Shown here: positions 32,248-39,915 of the stretch, one piece after another
Layout of the letters: each line of letters opens with the position of its first letter
Position numbering within the stretch: the first letter of the stretch is position 1
Virus record (IMG/VR): IMGVR_UViG_2852055501_000011
Span: 1-64,000 of that record
Direction: 5' to 3' (one strand)
Length of the DNA stretch: 64,000 nt
From: a virus
Lineage: Duplodnaviria; Caudoviricetes
Made by a program: the position numbers and the translations under genes
The notes under the pieces: generated by a model
The model's database searches: none
Told to the model about the DNA's origin: nothing
The model's input: only the letters and a program-made list of their open reading frames with translations

Positions 32248-32289
32248 TAAAAAATAAGATAGGTTATGTATTGTCTAAGTGAGGTTAGG

Positions 32290-32922
32290 ATGGAGACTGT
32301 AGGAAGTAGAATAAAGAGACTAAGGAATACAACGAAAACAACACAGGTTGAGCTCGGCAAGTTCTGTGGTGTATCAGGCGTAGCGGTCGGCTTTTGGGAG
32401 AGGGATTTAAATCAACCAAGCGGTGATGCACTAATTAAGTTAGCGCAATTTTTTAACACAACAGAACCGTATATTTTGTACGGAATACCGTCAAAGCATG
32501 CTGAAAATGTCATAACAACAATGCGAAAAATCCCTGTAATATCATACGTGCAGGCTGGATTATTTACTGAAAGTATTCCTGAAGATATATATAATGACGC
32601 ACTTGAATACCTTGAGACATCAATAAAAACATCACCATCAAGTTTTGCCCTTATTGTAAAAGGTGATTCTATGACAAACCCTTCCGGTTCACCATCCATA
32701 CCGGAGGGAGCAAAAGTAATTGTAGACCCAGAGGCGGAAGTCGTTAACGGGAAAATTGTCGTAGCCCGCCTTGATGGAACAAGCGAAGTGACGATAAAAA
32801 AACTAGTAATAGATGGCCCGAGTAAATTTCTATCCCCCCTAAACCCCCGCTACCCAAACATTTCCATTAACGGAAACTGCCTAATCATTGGGGTTGTCCG
32901 TGGTGTACAATACGAACTCTAA
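32290..32922 (+). CDS. cI: CI repressor (HTH plus S24 peptidase), SOS-cleavable
   Basis: HTH; cleavage site VQAG; catalytic GDSM serine and TIKKL lysine all intact. Confidence 0.93.
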   Translation: METVGSRIKRLRNTTKTTQVELGKFCGVSGVAVGFWERDLNQPSGDALIKLAQFFNTTEPYILYGIPSKHAENVITTMRKIPVISYVQAGLFTESIPEDIYNDALEYLETSIKTSPSSFALIVKGDSMTNPSGSPSIPEGAKVIVDPEAEVVNGKIVVARLDGTSEVTIKKLVIDGPSKFLSPLNPRYPNISINGNCLIIGVVRGVQYEL

Positions 32923-33455: not shown

Positions 33456-33818
33456 ATGAGCGAGAATAACCGCATGACCAGTGTACCGGACTTTCTCTCC
33501 GAGTTAGACGCCGGTGTGTTTGAAAACAAACTTTCTGCTGCACTGAATGAAGTCGCTTTTGGTACCAATAAGAACGGCGGTACTGGTGAAGTACACGTGA
33601 TTTTTAAATTCACTCAGTCAGATGAAGACCGCGTGAAAATATCTCACAAACTGAAAATGGTTACACCGACTAAGCGCGGTAAAAAATCGGAAGAGGATAC
33701 AACCGAAACACCGATGTGGGTCGGTAAAGGCGGGAAACTCACTATTCTACCGGAAGACCAGGGGCAGTTATTTGGTATTGACGGCAGTATCGACGGGAAA
33801 TTAAAAGCCATTAATTAA
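33456..33818 (+). CDS. Conserved prophage protein (YfdP-like)
   Basis: TSVPDFLSELDAGVFENK..PTKRGKKSEEDTTETPMWVGKGGKLT; adjacent to YfdQ. Confidence 0.8.
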   Translation: MSENNRMTSVPDFLSELDAGVFENKLSAALNEVAFGTNKNGGTGEVHVIFKFTQSDEDRVKISHKLKMVTPTKRGKKSEEDTTETPMWVGKGGKLTILPEDQGQLFGIDGSIDGKLKAIN

Positions 33819-33883: not shown

Positions 33884-34711
33884 ATGTCTAATTTAGACGG
33901 AACCGCTATTTCTCAGATTCAGAATATGGCCGTTGCTTCATTAAGTCTGGACGCTGTAAATAAATCCCTCTGCCCTGCTGTGGTTTTACCGGGTGATTTC
34001 AATGTTAAAAGCCTGGAGCACTTACAGGAAGGTCGCTATCGCTTCCGTGGTGCGATGGATACAACCAGTATCACTGACTTTGTGAAGTATTCCCTGCAAC
34101 ACGGTGTTGAGGAAGGTGTCAGCTGCTTTATTGATGCTGATGAAATGGCCGCTAAAACCATCTTTAATATCGGTTCCATCGGTGAGCCTGGGCATGCAGA
34201 TAATACAGCCACTGTATCACTGAAAAAGACATCGCCTTTTGCATCACTGCTGAATGTTAACGGCCGCCGTCAGGGTCAGAAAGAACTGGCGGAATGGCTG
34301 GAAGACTGGCGCGATAACCTGATGGCATTTGATGCAGAAGGTAATGTTATTGATATTAAGCAGGCAATCAATGCTGTGCGCAAAATCACCATTGAAGCAA
34401 GCCGCTCCGCAGATCATGAGGACCGTGATTTTGGTGCCAGCCGCTCCGTAATGGAAAGCGTGGAAGCAAAAAGCCGTGACATCATGCCTGCTGTATTTCA
34501 GTTTACCTGCACACCATACGATGAACTGTCTGAACGTGCTATCAAACTGCGTTACAGCGTTCTGACCGGTGGTGATGTACCTGTGCTGGTACTGCGTATT
34601 GTTCAGCTGGAAAAACTGGAAGAACAAATCGCCCAGGAATTCCGTGATCTGCTGGCTGATAAATTCGAAGAAACCGAAATTCAAACCTATATCGGTAAAT
34701 TCAAAGCTTAA
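33884..34711 (+). CDS. YfdQ-family (DUF2303) protein
   Basis: RYRFRGAM.T.SITDF, PGHADNTA and QKELAEWLEDW motifs. Confidence 0.88.
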   Translation: MSNLDGTAISQIQNMAVASLSLDAVNKSLCPAVVLPGDFNVKSLEHLQEGRYRFRGAMDTTSITDFVKYSLQHGVEEGVSCFIDADEMAAKTIFNIGSIGEPGHADNTATVSLKKTSPFASLLNVNGRRQGQKELAEWLEDWRDNLMAFDAEGNVIDIKQAINAVRKITIEASRSADHEDRDFGASRSVMESVEAKSRDIMPAVFQFTCTPYDELSERAIKLRYSVLTGGDVPVLVLRIVQLEKLEEQIAQEFRDLLADKFEETEIQTYIGKFKA

Positions 34712-34809
34712 TTATTTTATGCCGCTTTAACCGGCGGCATTTCTACTGCCAACACCAGAGAATAAGTTAGTTTAATAAAATATAGAATCTTTATTACATA
34801 GAGGCCTCC

Positions 34810-35037
34810 ATGCCTGAACAAAAAAAACAAAGCGTTAAAATGATTATTACTGTGGCATTAGGTACCCCACCCACTATTAACGTTGATGTACAGAATGAAC
34901 TTCATATTAATGAAGAACAACCTCTTACAAAATATTTCTTAGAAAGAGTTAGTGAATATATTTCCGGCAAAGAAGCAATAACGAATGCAATAACAAAAGC
35001 CGCACAAGATACTCTGACAAAAAGAAATATACACTAA
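34810..35037 (+). CDS. AT-rich hypothetical protein
   Basis: 75 aa; GAGG SD; markedly more AT-rich than its neighbours. Confidence 0.6.
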   Translation: MPEQKKQSVKMIITVALGTPPTINVDVQNELHINEEQPLTKYFLERVSEYISGKEAITNAITKAAQDTLTKRNIH

Positions 35038-35079
35038 AAAATAATGGCTTTTTATTACCTAAATTGTGTGGAGAGATAA

Positions 35080-35802
35080 ATGTTATATATATCAACCAGT
35101 ACCGGAAAACATATTGATTTCGTCAATATCACTCCGGATCAGATTTGTATCGAAGATATCGCGCGCGGTCTGTCGAATGAATGCCGCTTTGCCGGGCAAC
35201 TGGAAAGTTTCTATTCCGTGGCTCAGCACTCTGTATATGTCAGCCAGATTGTGCCGCCGGAATACGCACTGGAAGCGCTGCTGCACGATGCCGCTGAGGC
35301 GTATATCAAAGATATCCCCTCACCGCTGAAAGCCATGCTGCCGGACTACAAGGCCGTGGAAAAACGCATTGAAGCGGTTATCCGTGAAAATTTCGGCCTG
35401 CCGCCGGTAATGACAGTTGATGTTCACTATGCCGATCTGGTCATGCTGGCGACCGAAAAACGGGACTTTGAAATAGACCCCGGCGGCCACTGGCCGATGC
35501 TGGATTCAGCCCCACCACATGATGACATCATTATCCGGCCACTGACACCGCCGCAGGCATATCACCAGTTTATGGCCCGGTTTGAAATCCTAACAAGAGG
35601 TGATTCATTTCCAGAGATACTAGAGCTTGGCCTCAGTGTGCGGGCTGCAAATTGCCTTAAACAGGCAGGGATAGTAACAACAGGGCTGTTACTGAAAGAA
35701 ACAGAAGTAAACCTCTTAAGAATACCAGGAATTGGGAGTCAGATACTCAGAGAAATAATTGAATCGATAAAACCATTCGGACTTAAGTTAAAAAAAGGAT
35801 AG
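35080..35802 (+). CDS. YfdR/YfbR-like HD phosphohydrolase fused to a C-terminal RNA polymerase alpha-CTD-like domain
   Basis: YSVAQHS..ALLHDAAEAYIKDI..YAD (HD motif) followed by ELGLSVRAANCLKQAGI..ETEVNLLRIPGIG. Confidence 0.88.
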   Translation: MLYISTSTGKHIDFVNITPDQICIEDIARGLSNECRFAGQLESFYSVAQHSVYVSQIVPPEYALEALLHDAAEAYIKDIPSPLKAMLPDYKAVEKRIEAVIRENFGLPPVMTVDVHYADLVMLATEKRDFEIDPGGHWPMLDSAPPHDDIIIRPLTPPQAYHQFMARFEILTRGDSFPEILELGLSVRAANCLKQAGIVTTGLLLKETEVNLLRIPGIGSQILREIIESIKPFGLKLKKG

Positions 35803-35807
35803 TAATA

Positions 35808-36377
35808 GTGAATAAATTCAAACATCTGATGATTGATCTTGAAGTTATGGCTAAAAAGCCGGATGGCGCTATAGCAGCTATTGCGGCTGTACCGTTCGAT
35901 ATGGTTTCCGGTGTAACCGATGATGCGCTTTTTTATGAGGTGGTCGATCTGCGTAGTAGTGCCGGATTGGGCGGAAGTATCGACGCTGATACCGTGCTGT
36001 GGTGGCTGGGTAAAAGCGATAATGCCCGTGGTGAAATCATTAATAGCGAAAAGGCCATTGAACTGCCTGACGCACTGCTCGGCCTCAGTTCATTCGTTTC
36101 TGAGTTCTGTGGAGAACAGGTTCAGGTATGGGGTAACGGAAGTAGTTTCGATAACGTTATTTTGCGATCAGCTTATGAAAACTGCGGGATAACTCCGTTC
36201 TGGAAGCACTGGAATGACCGGGATGTGCGCACCATTGTCGAACTTGGCCGCAATGCCGGCATCGACCCGAAAAAAGATTTCCCGTTTGTTGGTGAAGCAC
36301 ACAATGCACTGGATGATGCATTGCACCAGGTGAATTACGTGGTCGCAATCCACCAGCATTTATTAAAAAACCTCTAA
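35808..36377 (+). CDS. DEDDh 3'-5' exonuclease (phage type)
   Basis: MIDLE, VWGNGSSFDNVIL, RDVRT and HNALDDA motifs. Confidence 0.9.
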   Translation: MNKFKHLMIDLEVMAKKPDGAIAAIAAVPFDMVSGVTDDALFYEVVDLRSSAGLGGSIDADTVLWWLGKSDNARGEIINSEKAIELPDALLGLSSFVSEFCGEQVQVWGNGSSFDNVILRSAYENCGITPFWKHWNDRDVRTIVELGRNAGIDPKKDFPFVGEAHNALDDALHQVNYVVAIHQHLLKNL

Positions 36378-36407
36378 TCGTATACGGCGATGTGTGGAGA
36401 GAAGATT

Positions 36408-36596
36408 ATGAATACTGAACCGACAAGATACATAAAAATGAAGGAAATGATTTCTCTGACGGGAAAAAGTAAACCGACACTGTGGCGGATGTACGCGAAA
36501 CGAAACGAGTTTCCGAAGCCGGAAAGAACGAAAGGCGGGACTTTTTTGGGATGGTCTGAAACTGTTTATGAGGATTGGGTCAGGAGTGAAAAATAA
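36408..36596 (+). CDS. AlpA/TorI-family excisionase
   Basis: YIKMKEMISLTGKSKPTLWRM..EFPKP..GWSE..V.DW; adjacent to att. Confidence 0.85.
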   Translation: MNTEPTRYIKMKEMISLTGKSKPTLWRMYAKRNEFPKPERTKGGTFLGWSETVYEDWVRSEK

Positions 36597-36655
36597 AATA
36601 CTAACTAGACCCGTTACTTAACCCGCTTTCTGGCGGGTTTTCTTTCCCCGTTATA

Positions 36656-36717: not shown

Positions 36718-36907
36718 AGCGTAGAATTAATCCTTTGTAATCAATTAAATATGGAAGTAACCAGTGTTCACGCACCATTTCCATAATGAAGTTGTTCAAA
36801 GTCGTTCTATGTCATTTCAAGTCATTTTAGTTTATCCGCCCCATTTCCGCCCCATCATACAATCCCCCTGCTATACTCCCATCATCACCCACCACTCCGA
36901 AACCAAC

Positions 36908-37132
36908 ATGCACAACATCGCCAACCTACCCCAAGACGAAAAAGACAAAATTAATGCCGATTTAGCCGCATCCGGTATCGCGTACAAAGAAAGACTCGGA
37001 CTGCCGTATGATCTGTACGAAACAGAAAACCAGCAGCCCGAGCATTTACGCCCGTACTTCAGAGAGAGGCTGGAGCACTACAGGGAGATCGGGAAAAGGT
37101 TTCCGCGCGGGTTCGAGTATGAGAAGGAGTGA
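36908..37132 (+). CDS. holE: DNA polymerase III theta subunit homolog (HolE / P1 Hot-like)
   Basis: NIANLPQDEKDKINADLAASGIAYKER..QPEHLRPYFRERL matches HolE/Hot motifs. Confidence 0.88.
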   Translation: MHNIANLPQDEKDKINADLAASGIAYKERLGLPYDLYETENQQPEHLRPYFRERLEHYREIGKRFPRGFEYEKE

Positions 37133-37148
37133 TCATGTCACGTTCATG

Positions 37149-37177
37149 CTGACCTATCTTGACAGGAATGGTAAACT
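37149..37177 (+). promoter_or_regulatory. Probable gtr promoter
   Basis: CTGACC-N17-TAAACT with extended -10 TG. Confidence 0.45.
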
Positions 37178-37209
37178 CACGCATAAATTTTCGTTATGCA
37201 TGAGACAAA

Positions 37210-37572
37210 ATGATTCAGTTGTTTTATAAATACTTCTCTGTTGGTGTTATCAACACCCTGCTCCATTGGGCTGTCTTTGCCGTACTGGTCTACTTAGCCA
37301 GCACAACACAGGCGACAGCTAACCTGATTGCGTTCATTGTCGCTGTCACCTTCTCGTTTTTTGCCAACGCAAAGTTCACTTTCAAGAAAAAGGCTACCGG
37401 TGGCCGCTATGTAGCCTTTGTAGGGTTCATGGGTGTGCTTAGTTACCTGACCGGCTTCATCGCGGATAAAGTCAATGCCGCACCTATTATCACCTTGGTG
37501 GCGTTTTCAGCTATCAGCCTGGTGCTCGGATTTCTTTACTCAAAATTATTTGTTTTTAAAGGCATGGAATAA
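37210..37572 (+). CDS. gtrA: Bactoprenol-glucose translocase GtrA
   Basis: 120 aa with four TM segments; [25 protein letters not shown]. Confidence 0.95.
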
Positions 37573-38486
37573 TGAAAATATCATTAGTCGTCCCGGTATT
37601 TAATGAAGAAGAAGCAATACCTATCTTCTACAAAACTGTCCGTGAAAATGAAGAACTAAAAAAGCATGAAGTCGAAATCATCTTCATCAATGACGGCAGC
37701 AAGGACTCAACAGAAAGTATCATCAATGCACTGGCTATTGCAGACAGCCTGGTTAAGCCACTGAGCTTCACGCGTAACTTTGGCAAAGAACCCGCTCTGT
37801 TTGCTGGCCTTGACCACGCTACTGGCGATGCAGTTATTCCTATTGATGTTGACCTGCAAGACCCTATCGATGTTATCCCTGTTCTCATTGAGAAATGGCA
37901 GGAAGGCGCTGACGTTGTTCTGGCAAAACGCACAGACCGATCAACCGATGGGTGGTTAAAACGTAAAACCGCCGAGTGGTTCTATAAGCTGCACAATAAA
38001 ATCAGCACACCGAAAATCGAAGAAAATGTTGGTGATTTCCGGCTGATGTCACGCGAAACGGTAGAAAACATCAAGCTGCTGCCAGAGCGTAACCTGTTCA
38101 TGAAAGGTGTTCTGTCATGGGTCGGCGGTAACGTTGATATTGTGGAATACACCCGCGCCGAACGATCAGCAGGTGAATCGAAATTTAATGGCTGGAAGCT
38201 GTGGAATCTCGCACTTGAAGGCATCACCAGCTTCTCCACTTTCCCGCTCCGTATGTGGACATACATCGGCCTGTTTGTTGCCGCGCTGTCATTTGTGTAC
38301 GGAGGATGGATGATCATCGATAAACTCATATGGGGCAACCCTGTGCCTGGATATCCGTCACTGCTTGTGTCTATTTTGTTCCTTGGTGGCATCCAGTTAA
38401 TCGGGATAGGTGTGCTTGGTGAGTATATTGGACGTATTTACACTGAAAGCAAAAAGCGTCCTAAATATTTGTTGAAAAGGAAGTAA
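37572..38486 (+). CDS. gtrB: Bactoprenol glucosyltransferase GtrB (GT2)
   Basis: [26 protein letters not shown] and IDVDLQDP motifs; two C-terminal TM segments. Confidence 0.96.
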
Positions 38487-38487
38487 G

Positions 38488-39915
38488 ATGATGCAATTCG
38501 CAAAAAACTGTAAAACATCAGCTATTATCTTATGTATGTATATGATACCAATTTTTATATTTGGAACATACTACAGAGATGATAACGGAAGAGTTGTATC
38601 TCAATATTTTGGATGGGATGAGGACGGTCGCCCGCTGACAAACATCATAATTAAATTTTTAAATTTTGGAGGCAGACTTACAGATTTAGCGCCGATGTCG
38701 CAAATACTTTCTATCGTAATATCAGCAATAACATGCGGCATCATTTGCTCTTTTGTCATTAAAAACAATAGATTATCAGTAGTGATATCTACTACATTCC
38801 TATTCTTAAGTCCATTTTATTTACAAAATATTATATATAGGTTCGACGTTGTAACAATGGCAATATCAATTCTATTTGCCGCCATACCATTTTTATTTAT
38901 CAAGATACAGAATATATATGCACACATGCTGATATCATTCATATCGGTGATATGTTTACTATCAACATACCAAGCATCACTTCCGGTTTTTTACTCTCTG
39001 CTGCTACTTTCGTTTGTATTTAATGGTGATGTTAAAATAAACATATGCAGAGCATTATCTGGCGCGGCATCTTTATTTGTATATTACTTCATAATATCAC
39101 CAATGTATGTTGGCGGTGAATATGCAAAATACAGAGCAGAATCAATAGATACAAAATCAGAAAGTGTCATAAATTCGGTGATACTTAATTTTTCAAATCT
39201 ATTTGATAATTTGCATGTTATTATAAATTACAAGTTTTTTGTTATATTCTCTATGGTGCTAGCAGCACTATTAATTAAATCAACATACTATTTAATCAAC
39301 AACAAAAATAATTTAAAAGGATTTATTTTATTTTCATTTTTCTTATTAGCATTTATGTTTTCATTTGGCATATTCTTTTTATTGAAGAAACCAGTCTATG
39401 AACCAAGGGTAATGATTGGAATAAATGCCATCATAATGATGATAAGTATTGCAGCGGTGAGCGGTTGGGATAGAAGGCTGTGCAATGTTTATAGTATTAT
39501 ATCTATCATCCCACCATTATTATTCTTTTTCTCTATGGCAACAAATTATATAAATGCAAGTAATGCATATGTTAAATATGAAGAAGACACCATCCGCTCG
39601 ATGTACTATGACTATAAAAGATTAGATATGTCAGGAGTAGCATACATTGATGGTTACCTATTACCTCCATACATAACAGAGCAGATCTTAAATGAAAAAC
39701 CATTTTTGAGGAATATTGTCGGAAGCCGTATTGGTGGTCTAACATCATATCTCAGTAAATCAGACTTTCCTTTATTTAATTTTTCAGCCAGTGATAAGTC
39801 AATCGACAGCATTGTTTCATGTGGTGAAATATTATCACCGTATAATGGCGTATACACAACAATCAGGATTGATGATAAAAATTATTTTTCATTAAAGGAA
39901 GTAAATTGTAAATAA
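38488..39915 (+). CDS. gtrC: Serotype-specific O-antigen glucosyltransferase (GtrC / GtrII-like)
   Basis: AT-rich polytopic protein; YYRDD..R..GWDEDGRPL, SPFYLQNI.YRFD, YQ and EPRVMIG motifs; third gene of the gtr cassette. Confidence 0.85.
   Translation: MMQFAKNCKTSAIILCMYMIPIFIFGTYYRDDNGRVVSQYFGWDEDGRPLTNIIIKFLNFGGRLTDLAPMSQILSIVISAITCGIICSFVIKNNRLSVVISTTFLFLSPFYLQNIIYRFDVVTMAISILFAAIPFLFIKIQNIYAHMLISFISVICLLSTYQASLPVFYSLLLLSFVFNGDVKINICRALSGAASLFVYYFIISPMYVGGEYAKYRAESIDTKSESVINSVILNFSNLFDNLHVIINYKFFVIFSMVLAALLIKSTYYLINNKNNLKGFILFSFFLLAFMFSFGIFFLLKKPVYEPRVMIGINAIIMMISIAAVSGWDRRLCNVYSIISIIPPLLFFFSMATNYINASNAYVKYEEDTIRSMYYDYKRLDMSGVAYIDGYLLPPYITEQILNEKPFLRNIVGSRIGGLTSYLSKSDFPLFNFSASDKSIDSIVSCGEILSPYNGVYTTIRIDDKNYFSLKEVNCK

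What the first reader, a model, noticed from the sequence alone, without database searches (positions are those of the whole stretch)
35080..35802. HD phosphohydrolase fused to an RNA polymerase alpha-CTD mimic
Seen: an intact YfdR/YfbR-type H..HD..D domain continues in frame from ~35608 into ELGLSVRAANCLKQAGIVTTGLLLKETEVNLLRIPGIGSQILREI, with a visible shift to A-rich codons at the junction. Known: this parallels RpoA [37 protein letters not shown]; alpha-CTD binds UP DNA, activators and NusA, and its Arg265 is ADP-ribosylated by T4 Alt/ModA. Here the R265, N268, C269 and G296 equivalents are kept while K298 and S299 are lost. Inference: either an integrated decoy coupling an alpha-targeting phage factor to nucleotide hydrolysis (defence), or a titrator of host activators. 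I do not know a described system with this architecture.
Basis: partly seen in the sequence, partly recalled or inferred. Interest (0 to 1): 0.78.

Follow-up and report, generated by a model that had tools for sequence, protein, structure and literature searches.

The report
Prophage YfdR enzyme with alpha-CTD-like tail

Summary
Window 35080-35802 (+) is one intact 240-codon ORF. Residues 1-172 are a YfdR homologue, 56% identical to an E. coli protein annotated yfdR, with yfdP and yfdQ upstream in the same order and the H..HD..D ligands invariant. A low-confidence linker follows. Residues about 179-237 pass Pfam RNA_pol_A_CTD (48.8 bits, cut-off 23.8) and fold as alpha-CTD (all top 50 PDB matches, TM 0.75-0.86).

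The fusion is not a one-off. Three diverged lineages (100/87/75% identity) occur in Morganella, and one exact sequence was seen on 76 contigs. HD and tail diverge in parallel.

The tail is not a recent copy of host rpoA (45% identity). It sits in a roughly 200-bp low-GC cassette (GC3 0.29 against 0.56) between mosaic breakpoints. Relatives carry three other genes there, or other tails at the same junction.

The Arg265 equivalent is Lys in one lineage, and no HD defence-family match was found, so the decoy reading lacks support.

My best reading (about 0.4) is that the tail is a tethering adaptor, more likely for DNA than for a protein, on a YfdR enzyme whose E. coli homologue binds DnaA.

It is a new variant of known kinds and of moderate interest.

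The parts
35080..35802 (+). Whole ORF, 240 codons plus stop: YfdR-type HD domain, linker, alpha-CTD-like tail
35070..35075 (+). GGAGAG Shine-Dalgarno-like motif ending 4 nt before the ATG
   Evidence: read from the sequence
35080..35595 (+). HD phosphohydrolase domain (residues 1-172), YfdR homologue; ligands H50, H69, D70, D119
35596..35622 (+). Linker (residues 173-181); residues 175-181 are modelled at pLDDT below 50
35614..35769 (+). Match to Pfam PF03118 RNA_pol_A_CTD (model positions 14-65 of 67)
35598..35797 (+). Low-GC cassette (about 200 bp) between the two points where similarity to tail-less relatives stops and resumes
33456..33818 (+). yfdP-like gene (56% identical to E. coli YfdP), same operon
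33884..34711 (+). YfdQ / DUF2303 gene, same operon
35808..36377 (+). Rv2179c-like 3'-5' exonuclease gene. Its GTG start lies 5 nt after the stop, and an AAGGA motif (35795-35799) sits inside the end of the tail ORF
36390..36596 (+). AlpA-like excisionase/regulator, last gene of the operon
36620..36639 (+). Terminator-like hairpin followed by a T run after the operon (consensus scan only)
32266..32922 (+). CI/LexA-like repressor (HTH plus S24 peptidase) upstream on the same strand

Best explanation
This is a genuine, conserved early gene of a lambdoid (Hendrixvirinae-like) Morganella prophage. It lies in the leftward early operon: repressor, yfdP, yfdQ, yfdR-tail, exonuclease, alpA. The N-terminal 172 residues are a YfdR-type HD metal phosphohydrolase. 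The E. coli homologue is annotated as a 5'-deoxynucleotidase and was shown to bind DnaA. A linker modelled at low confidence joins this domain to one alpha-CTD-fold domain of helix-hairpin-helix type. That domain belongs to the large pool of non-RpoA alpha-CTD-like modules and entered as a roughly 200-bp low-GC mosaic cassette. Inferred, not shown: the tail is a tethering adaptor that holds the YfdR enzyme on a partner. The partner is more likely DNA, bound at the minor groove or backbone through the conserved R/K265-N268-hairpin face. A host protein that normally docks on alpha-CTD is less likely. The tether would raise the local concentration of the enzyme, or of its DnaA-blocking surface, during early lytic growth. 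The tail is not a recent mimic copied from host rpoA.
For: Shown. The ORF is intact and both domains are identified. The yfdP-yfdQ-yfdR synteny with E. coli holds. The operon context is supported. In the full-length model residues 175-181 have pLDDT below 50.

The fusion recurs in three diverged lineages, at 100, 87 and 75% identity to the window protein. HD and tail identities fall together: 0.96/1.00, 0.88/0.84 and 0.76/0.73. Nearly all tail substitutions between lineages are conservative (R/K, I/V) and the ORF stays open. The exact 240-aa sequence P0276 was seen on 76 contigs and the 241-aa P0290 on 32. All source names given are Morganella.

No closer relative of the tail exists outside this fusion. 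The best non-self identity is 48% in the 1.84-billion-representative search, and 47% over the 59-residue core. The two word-based searches returned only the fusion and fragments of it.

Residues kept across all lineages and in the Mecenats66 tail include N268, A273-G274, T277, P293, I295 and G296; position 265 is R or K. Positions used by RpoA for protein partners vary: 261 is G/G/D/H, 271 is K/K/E/K, 288 is N/S/S/D (the roles of these positions are recalled).

The tail carries net charge +3 against -12 for the HD part. Of the 90 closest representatives scanned, 65 also score as HHH_5 and only 4 carry the RpoA dimerisation domain. A second Morganella phage protein, Mecenats66 ORF34 (phrog_444/DUF2591 N-terminal domain), carries a related tail with the same derived residues: AG273-274, TT277-278, PGIG, F310, K313. 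The module is therefore portable between different N-terminal domains.

Noguchi and Katayama 2016 (PMC4776307; abstract and Discussion read) show that YfdR binds DnaA. They also note that YfdQRST do not bind oriC tightly in vitro but could do so in vivo. This is a gap that a DNA-binding tail would fill.

RNA-library contigs from one sample bridge the junction (X15: 35461-35732; X16: 35083-35698).
Against: The RpoA residues recalled as most critical for UP-element DNA binding after R265 are not kept. Position 298 is Q/T/K/G. Position 299 is I/V/L, and only 3 of the 132 best-scoring domains of the other, non-RpoA proteins compared have I there. The classical HhH model HHH_5 scores only 13.6 bits against a cut-off of 27. 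One variant (P0003) has E at position 294 in the second hairpin.

Most YfdR homologues, including the closest phage ones at 92-93% identity, have no tail. Other tails at the same junction are stand-alone genes elsewhere. A fusion can therefore arise by simple deletion without functional coupling.

One diverged metatranscriptome contig (X17) shows G>T at 35623. On its own this would turn codon 182 into TAG; the other differences in that contig were not all listed. RNA-library contigs do not prove transcription, as the tool itself warns.
Confidence: 0.4

Rival explanations
1. Incidental mosaic fusion. The tail is an independent small accessory module that landed in frame behind yfdR by phage recombination or deletion. 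The two halves work separately, or the tail does little.
For: The left breakpoint lies in the last codons of the HD domain and the right one at the start region of the exonuclease gene. Relatives carry three genes there instead. The 280-aa variant (cluster of 270 members) is yfdR fused to a protein (phrog_1372) that is a separate gene in L006. Providencia has a third tail. The same HD allele occurs with different tails: P0005 and P0017 are 93% identical in HD, P0003 and P0009 96%. GC3 is 0.29 in the tail against 0.56 in the HD part.
Against: No stand-alone form of this tail was found. The 76- to 80-aa entries start at the internal Met165, inside the HD domain. For the 87% lineage a 76-aa and a 241-aa entry share the same longest-contig length (4,151,415), so I read them as alternative gene calls of one locus. 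The tail has co-diverged with HD over three lineages, with conservative changes and no stop.
Confidence: 0.25
2. Alpha-CTD surrogate or titrator. The tail competes with the RNA polymerase alpha-CTD for UP elements, activators (CRP-type, phage CII-type) or NusA, and so re-programmes host or phage transcription. The HD domain acts as scaffold or passenger.
For: The tail has a true alpha-CTD fold with rmsd about 0.7-1.2 A to E. coli alpha-CTD chains. T285-E286-V287 and L289-L290 are kept. The prophage encodes a CII-like activator and a CI-like repressor. A lambda CII activation complex is among the matched alpha-CTD structures (8igr). The gene is expressed from an early operon (context).
Against: Identity to host RpoA is only 45%. 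D258, E261, E288, K298 and S299 are changed, and the segment beyond position 317 is missing. The kept TE..LL motif is also the consensus of the non-RpoA modules, so it is probably structural. K271 is E in P0005.
Confidence: 0.2
3. Integrated decoy for defence. The tail baits an alpha-targeting enzyme of a superinfecting phage (for example an ADP-ribosyltransferase) and switches on nucleotide hydrolysis by the HD domain.
For: Phages do modify the RNAP alpha subunit (T4 Alt/ModA/ModB; Rac of phiKMV-like phages), as stated in passages of PMC7824862 and in the abstract of PMC7552054 shown in a search listing. Prophage accessory genes often exclude other phages (general knowledge). R265 is present in the window's own allele.
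Against: R265 is K in P0005 and in the Mecenats66 tail. No PADLOC model matches the HD part or five neighbouring ORFs tested. The HD domain is of the YfdR/YfbR dNMP-phosphatase type and not a dNTP triphosphohydrolase. Its only dNTPase-family match is weak (phrog_7076, E 0.0011), and DatZ and OxsA appear only as weak fold matches. The flexible linker and the lack of a confident inter-domain interface in the model give no hint of allosteric coupling (weak, because the alignment is shallow over the tail).
Confidence: 0.07
4. Artefact: read-through from an assembly error, or a decaying pseudogene.
For: Some assemblies carry 6 or 8 A instead of 7 at 35790-35796, which changes the C-terminal residues (P0122, P0273). 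RefSeq-style entries list only 76 codons. One variant contig has a possible stop at codon 182.
Against: The identical ORF recurs on many contigs and in 14 DNA runs that hold all sampled words, spread over 8 studies. These may include the window's own source. It is conserved at 87% and 75% identity with the frame intact. P0273 also shows a second frame change after DDALF, which I read as an error-prone assembly.
Confidence: 0.02

Closest known systems
E. coli YfdR (CPS-53/KplE1-type prophage 5'-deoxynucleotidase and DnaA-binding protein; PMC4776307)
   Same: 97/172 (56%) identical, ungapped, over the whole HD domain. Same gene order repressor-yfdP-yfdQ-yfdR. Metal ligands kept.
   Different: The E. 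coli protein is 178 aa and has no C-terminal domain. Neither DnaA binding nor nucleotidase activity has been tested for the Morganella protein.
C-terminal domain of the bacterial RNA polymerase alpha subunit (RpoA, Pfam PF03118)
   Same: Passes the Pfam cut-off. Same fold. R265, N268, C269, G296 and E302 equivalents kept.
   Different: No alpha N-terminal dimerisation domain is present. Identity to the host RpoA CTD is 45%. D258, E261, N294, K297, K298 and S299 are changed, and the chain stops at the position-317 equivalent. It scores 48.8-51.4 bits where Morganella RpoA scores 88.4.
Non-RpoA alpha-CTD-like modules (tandem-repeat and multi-domain proteins in genomes and metagenomes)
   Same: These are the best hits in the 1.84-billion-representative search (2481 at E<=1e-3). 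G at position 261 is their commonest state, 50 of 132. 65 of 90 also score as HHH_5.
   Different: Most carry 2 to 12 repeats. No HD family appears among the 25 families most often matched in the 90 proteins scanned. Most keep K/R298 (79 of 132) and S/T299 (92 of 132), which this tail lacks.
Morganella phage Mecenats66 ORF34 (phrog_444/DUF2591 domain plus alpha-CTD-like tail)
   Same: C-terminal single alpha-CTD-like tail on a small early accessory protein of a Morganella phage. 42% identical over 66 residues, sharing the derived AG, TT, PGIG, F310 and K313 residues.
   Different: The N-terminal domain is different. The paralogue ORF38 in the same phage lacks the tail. The paper on that phage mentions none of the terms DUF2591, ORF34 or 'RNA polymerase' (term search only).
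PglW (BREX/Pgl serine-threonine kinase), internal segment
   Same: The tail aligns weakly to profile positions 807-863 (PADLOC) and 798-858 (NCBIfam). This shows that a defence protein also holds an alpha-CTD-like segment.
   Different: The scores, 19.3 and 17.6 bits, are far below family level (NCBIfam cut-off 990). No kinase or other PglW part is present.

Membership tests
RNA_pol_A_CTD domain (Pfam PF03118) | Score at or above the curated gathering cut-off | tested here: met
   48.8 bits against 23.8; 51.4 bits in the six-frame search. P0004 scores 41.6 and P0005 36.3.
RNA_pol_A_CTD domain (Pfam PF03118) | Compact helical alpha-CTD fold | tested here: met
   AF2 model pLDDT 89.3. All 50 top Foldseek PDB matches are alpha-CTD, TMq 0.75-0.86.
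RpoA (RNA polymerase alpha subunit) | N-terminal dimerisation/assembly domain and full-length equivalog score | tested here: not met
   The N-terminus is an HD domain. The NCBIfam rpoA equivalogs score 28-47 bits against cut-offs of 228-523.
RpoA alpha-CTD as UP-element binder | Residues R265, N268, C269, G296, K298, S299 (list recalled from the E. coli literature) | tested here: inconclusive
   Four of the six are kept in the window allele; K298 is Q and S299 is I. R265 is K and C269 is R in P0005. DNA binding itself is not testable with these tools.
YfdR / YfbR-like HD 5'-deoxynucleotidases | H..HD..D metal ligands | tested here: met
   H50, H69, D70 and D119 are invariant in 39 aligned sequences and align with 2gz4.
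YfdR / YfbR-like HD 5'-deoxynucleotidases | Homology and synteny with E. coli yfdR | tested here: met
   56% identity over 172 aa. yfdP and YfdQ lie upstream. PHROG 318 E 7e-87.
YfdR / YfbR-like HD 5'-deoxynucleotidases | Curated model cut-offs (Pfam YfbR-like; NCBIfam 5'-deoxynucleotidase equivalog, i.e. YfbR proper) | tested here: not met
   23.7 bits against 25.9; 19 bits against 122. It is a YfdR-type relative and not a YfbR equivalog.
YfdR / YfbR-like HD 5'-deoxynucleotidases | dNMP phosphatase activity; DnaA binding | not testable with these tools
   Known only for E. coli YfdR (PMC4776307; the enzyme activity is as annotated).
Known anti-phage defence systems (PADLOC-DB 2.0) | Match of the protein or its neighbours to a defence model | tested here: not met
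   Only PglW at 19.3 bits, on the tail. The five neighbouring ORFs tested gave none.
Classical helix-hairpin-helix (Pfam HHH_5) | Score at or above the cut-off | tested here: not met
   13.6 bits against 27, E 0.097.

The most novel reading that the evidence does not exclude
The protein is a phage-made stand-in for the RNA polymerase alpha subunit. An HD-domain scaffold would carry alpha-CTD-like heads on flexible linkers; I could not test whether it dimerises. In one version the heads compete with RNAP for UP elements, activators or NusA during the early lytic programme. In the other they serve as bait for alpha-modifying enzymes of rival phages and couple that event to nucleotide hydrolysis. 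Either way it would be the founding example for the function of a large, unstudied class of non-RpoA alpha-CTD-like modules.
Probability: 0.12. Interest if true: 0.8.

Novelty: new variant of a known kind. Interest (0 to 1): 0.5.

Why it matters
YfdR is one of the few prophage 'exo-xis region' proteins with a known host target (DnaA). Here it carries an extra, well-folded module of a kind known almost only from RNA polymerase. If the tail tethers YfdR to DNA or to a transcription partner, that would explain how a weakly acting phage factor is aimed at its target.

It would also give a first handle on the function of alpha-CTD-like modules outside RpoA. A 69-residue query found 2481 representative proteins at E<=1e-3, and my searches found no paper on them.

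There is a practical point for annotators. The 76-aa entries, which start at codon 165 and some of which carry RefSeq WP accessions, hide the fusion. One such 76-aa sequence was seen on 148 contigs.

Tried and rejected
Oligomeric state is therefore open.

3. I looked for a stand-alone or differently fused close relative of the tail. The 'longer' and 'near' word-based searches returned only the fusion and its fragments or alternative calls. The viral-contig scan gave one 42% match (L004; not followed up). Genome contigs gave only tail-less yfdR. In phages the best hit was Mecenats66 at 43%. Searching phages with the Mecenats66 tail found only itself. The plasmid collection returned RpoA genes, many on chromosome-sized records.

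4. In a sample of 121 genomes of the bacterial family of G001, 119 held RpoA. The only extra matches over the cut-off were a 49-codon fragment without a start codon in G016 and a marginal match in a 518-codon frame in G009. None lay in a frame of about 240 codons.

5. Identity of the other tails: the 105-aa tail (phrog_1372) and the Providencia tail (phrog_11960 and others) have no known function. There was no PDB sequence match, and the ESM Atlas gave only 'hypothetical protein' clusters at 0.80-0.81. The Atlas search with the whole protein gave one 0.75 hit.

6. The 66-aa gene upstream of the exonuclease in phage IME1369_02 was tested as a possible source of the tail. It is unrelated.

7. 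E. coli genomes hold no near-identical DNA.

8. Programmed -1 frameshifting at the A7 run into the exonuclease frame was considered. I set it aside because the run plus GGA serves as the exonuclease Shine-Dalgarno, and the A6/A8 variants look like homopolymer errors.

9. Parts of the stretch without cover in the RNA runs (for example X16 at 35705-35771, X18 beyond 35570) carry no weight.
Full report
**1. What is there**

Window 35080-35802 (+) is a single open frame of 240 codons. A GGAGAG motif lies at 35070-35075, just upstream of the ATG (read). The window is part of an IMG/VR provirus record of 84,356 bases.

Its left end holds host genes: a tryptophanase-like lyase and a Trp/Tyr permease at 1-2774. 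A lambdoid prophage follows. Its immunity region has a CI/LexA-like repressor at 32266-32922 (+), and a CII-like activator and an O-like replication protein on the other strand.

The finding lies in the operon that runs rightward from the repressor gene. In order, the operon holds:
- a phrog_1744 ORF;
- a yfdP-like gene (33456-33818);
- YfdQ/DUF2303 (33884-34711);
- a 75-codon low-GC ORF;
- the finding itself;
- an Rv2179c-like exonuclease (35808-36377);
- an AlpA-like excisionase (36390-36596);
- a terminator-like hairpin at 36620-36639.

The host is almost certainly Morganella. Every source name given for close relatives is Morganella. Named Morganella morganii contigs carry near-identical neighbouring genes.

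**2. The two domains**

*HD domain.* Residues 1-174 match PHROG 318, 'deoxyribonucleoside 5' monophosphate phosphatase', at E 7e-87. They match the HD protein Atu1052 (PDB 2gz4) at E 1.4e-15 by sequence and 6.6e-10 by fold. They are 97/172 (56%) identical, without a gap, to an E. coli protein annotated 'yfdR: 5'-deoxynucleotidase'. That E. coli gene follows yfdP and a YfdQ-family gene behind a LexA-family repressor, the same order as here.

H50, H69, D70 and D119 are invariant in 39 aligned homologues. The curated YfbR models are not reached: Pfam gives 23.7 bits against 25.9, and NCBIfam 19 against 122. The domain is therefore YfdR-type and not a YfbR equivalog.

*Tail.* Residues 179-230 score 48.8 bits on Pfam RNA_pol_A_CTD, where the cut-off is 23.8. 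They match solved alpha-CTD chains by sequence down to E 1.7e-8.

The full-length AF2 model (pLDDT 81) is confident for the HD part. Residues 175-181 fall below pLDDT 50, and the tail is modelled poorly because only five sequences cover it. Modelled alone with 26 aligned sequences, the tail reaches pLDDT 89.3.

**3. The residue claims**

The Morganella rpoA gene was taken from a genome. BLASTP aligns the tail to RpoA 259-314 without a gap, 25/56 identical. Protein residue j corresponds to RpoA j+77.

R265, N268, C269, G296 and E302 are kept. D258 becomes L, E261 G, E288 N, N294 G, K297 S, K298 Q and S299 I. The chain ends at the equivalent of position 317. The functional meaning of these positions (UP-element contacts, the '261' and '287' patches) is recalled from the E. 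coli literature and was not tested here.

**4. Not a one-off**

The 5.8-billion-protein search found full-length fusions in five clusters, at 100, 97, 96, 87 and 75% identity (P0001-P0005), plus a fragment cluster. Cluster look-ups show the exact 240-aa sequence P0276 on 76 contigs and the 241-aa P0290 on 32.

The stretch 35080-36400 is held whole (all sampled words) by 14 DNA runs from 8 studies. These may include the window's own source.

Across lineages the HD and tail parts diverge in step: 0.96/1.00, 0.88/0.84 and 0.76/0.73. Tail substitutions are mostly R/K and I/V exchanges. This is what purifying selection on a long-standing fusion would give. I could not compute dN/dS, because only the window's DNA was available.

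Many public entries list only the last 76 codons, starting at Met165 inside the HD domain (P0305 on 148 contigs). For the 87% lineage, a 76-aa and a 241-aa entry share the same longest-contig length, 4,151,415. I read these as alternative gene calls of one locus and not as a separate gene. I see no Shine-Dalgarno motif before Met165 (reading).

**5. Where the tail came from**

GC3 drops from 0.558 in the HD part to 0.294 in the tail. The exonuclease gene has GC3 0.474.

DNA alignments with four tail-less relatives were made: phages IME1369_02 and PSTRCR_117lys, and two M. morganii contigs. Similarity holds up to about 35597, the codons for ...RFEILT. In the one relative compared on the right side (IME1369_02), it resumes at about 35797, just before the exonuclease start.

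In M. morganii L006 and phage IME1369_02 the gap is filled by three other genes, the first two of comparable size in both records. In L006 these are a 228-aa phrog_874 protein, a DNA methyltransferase and a small ORF. The tail is therefore a mosaic cassette of about 200 bp.

The cassette is not a recent capture of host rpoA. Over the 59-residue core the tail is 42% identical to Morganella RpoA, 44-47% to the best non-RpoA modules and 44% to the Mecenats66 tail. Alphaproteobacterial RpoA reaches 50%.

In the search of 1.84 billion representatives, 2481 proteins matched at E<=1e-3. The top of the list is made of proteins with 2 to 12 matched stretches. Of the 90 such proteins of at most 600 residues that I scanned (of the 150 listed), all carry PF03118, 65 also score as HHH_5, 16 carry Sigma70_r4 and only 4 carry the RpoA dimerisation domain. 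No HD family is among the 25 most frequent families.

**6. The C-terminus of yfdR is a fusion hot spot**

At the same junction three other states occur:
- Morganella has a 280- to 284-aa form whose 105-aa tail is a separate phrog_1372 gene in L006.
- Providencia has a 238-aa form with a third tail.
- Most homologues stop at 174-180 aa.

HD alleles group by lineage and not by tail. P0005 (alpha-CTD tail) is 93% identical in HD to P0017 (105-aa tail). P0003 is 96% identical to P0009. This shows that fusions here can arise by simple recombination. It is the main support for the incidental-fusion rival.

**7. A second carrier of the module**

Morganella phage Mecenats66 ORF34 joins a phrog_444/DUF2591 domain to a related tail, 42% identical over 66 residues. 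The paralogue ORF38 lacks it.

The two kinds of phage tail share residues that RpoA lacks: A273-G274, T277-T278, P-G-I-G at 293-296, F310 and K313. Bacillus phage Goe8 and a CbK-like phage also have proteins annotated as alpha-CTD-containing (passage in PMC9127768). The module is thus portable among phage early proteins.

**8. How it most likely works**

*Shown.* There are two independently folded domains joined by a linker modelled at low confidence. The HD active-site ligands are intact. The gene sits in an early-operon position.

*Known for the homologue.* E. coli YfdR binds DnaA through Phe46 of domain I and moderately blocks DiaA and DnaB binding. Over-supply of yfdQRST inhibits initiation. 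The authors note that these proteins do not bind oriC tightly in vitro (PMC4776307; abstract and Discussion read).

*Inferred.* The tail is an adaptor that holds YfdR on a partner. I favour DNA for four reasons:
- The residues kept in all lineages and in Mecenats66 include N268, the A273-G274 turn, T277, P293, I295 and G296, with R or K at 265. As I recall the RpoA literature, R265, N268 and G296 lie on the DNA-contact face.
- The positions RpoA uses for protein partners (261, 271, 288) vary.
- The tail carries net charge +3 against -12 for the HD part.
- The nearest relatives are HhH-class modules.

Several points count against DNA. Positions 298 and 299 are not kept. HHH_5 is far below its cut-off. 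One variant has E at position 294.

I put this reading at about 0.4. The rivals are incidental fusion (0.25), alpha-CTD surrogate or titrator (0.2), decoy defence (0.07) and artefact (0.02).

**9. The decoy idea**

Alpha is a known phage target (passages of PMC7824862), so the idea is reasonable. Against it:
- The bait arginine is lysine in P0005 and in Mecenats66.
- PADLOC gives no match except a 19-bit hit of the tail to an internal PglW segment.
- The HD domain is of the dNMP-phosphatase type.
- The gene context is a phage early operon and not a defence island.

**10. Expression**

Contigs from two RNA libraries of one sample bridge the HD-tail junction (X15: 35461-35732; X16: 35083-35698). 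A metatranscriptome contig (X17: 35502-36293, 48 differences) covers a diverged copy of the tail and exonuclease. The tool warns that DNA can be present in such libraries, so this is weak support.

In X17 a G>T at 35623 would by itself make codon 182 a stop. Not all differences in that contig were listed, so I cannot tell whether that copy is broken.

**11. Literature**

I found no paper describing an HD/alpha-CTD fusion or the biology of non-RpoA alpha-CTD-like domains. The searches used these terms:
- alpha-CTD, phage, HD domain, fusion;
- PF03118, RNA_pol_A_CTD;
- alpha-CTD-like and related terms with prophage;
- alpha subunit C-terminal domain, helix-hairpin-helix, bacteriophage;
- Morganella, prophage, HD family hydrolase.

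The library lacks most subscription journals and supplements were closed, so a description could have been missed.

**12. Verdict**

The architecture is real, conserved in Morganella prophages and unusual: none of the extra alpha-CTD matches in 121 sampled genomes of the same bacterial family lay in such a frame. Its mechanism is open. It is a new combination of two known domain kinds. The interest is moderate and lies mainly in the untested role of a portable alpha-CTD-like module on a DnaA-binding phage enzyme.

Noticed in passing
window 35788-35810: The ORF ends in a run of seven A (35790-35796), then GGA TAG TAA TAG. The -1 frame is open from 35787 straight into the exonuclease GTG at 35808. 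Public variants with six or eight A change the C-terminus (P0122 ends KKDSNSE) or read through into the exonuclease (P0273). The run plus GGA also looks like the exonuclease Shine-Dalgarno, and P0273 has a second frame change, so homopolymer errors are the simpler reading. Slippage producing an HD-tail-exonuclease product was not tested.
   Followed up: partly
window 35572-35802: Many public entries, some with RefSeq WP accessions, list only the last 76 codons, starting at Met165 inside the HD domain, under the name 'DNA-directed RNA polymerase subunit alpha C-terminal domain-containing protein' (P0305 on 148 contigs, P0291 on 28). This hides the fusion.
   Followed up: partly
window 34810-35037: A 75-codon ORF with very low GC (GC3 0.197) and no Pfam, PHROG or PADLOC match lies between yfdQ and yfdR. 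One RNA-library contig of a relative (X18) skips 34742-35035 and has 32 other letters there, so this is another optional cassette.
   Followed up: no
L006 5001-7010; proteins P0009, P0012, P0017, P0052: The commonest tailed form of Morganella yfdR (280 aa, cluster of 270 members) is a fusion to a phrog_1372 protein that is a separate gene in M. morganii subsp. sibonii. Providencia has a third tail of about 60 residues, whose last 50 residues or so match the C-terminal portions of several unrelated PHROG families.
   Followed up: partly
L005 1527-2054: The tail-less yfdR of M. morganii H1r has Arg in place of the first metal-ligand His (H50). It may be an inactive enzyme that is still kept.
   Followed up: no
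L020 2159-2722 (Morganella phage Mecenats66 ORF34): A DUF2591/phrog_444 protein carries a related alpha-CTD-like tail. The paralogue ORF38 does not.
   Followed up: partly
window 36764-39915 and 39956-63628: After the AlpA gene come a DNA polymerase III theta-like ORF (phrog_1105), gtrA/gtrB/gtrC-like O-antigen conversion genes, and then a tail-spike gene and many further large ORFs on the minus strand, which I did not annotate. The 84-kb provirus record looks like two prophages side by side. I found no integrase next to the AlpA gene.
   Followed up: no
window 35623: In one diverged metatranscriptome contig (X17) a G>T here would, taken alone, turn codon 182 (GAG) into TAG just after the junction. 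Other differences in that contig were not all listed.
   Followed up: no
tail residues 178-238 against PglW profiles: The BREX/Pgl kinase PglW profiles contain an internal segment (about positions 800-860) that aligns weakly with the tail. This suggests an unremarked alpha-CTD-like segment in that defence protein.
   Followed up: no
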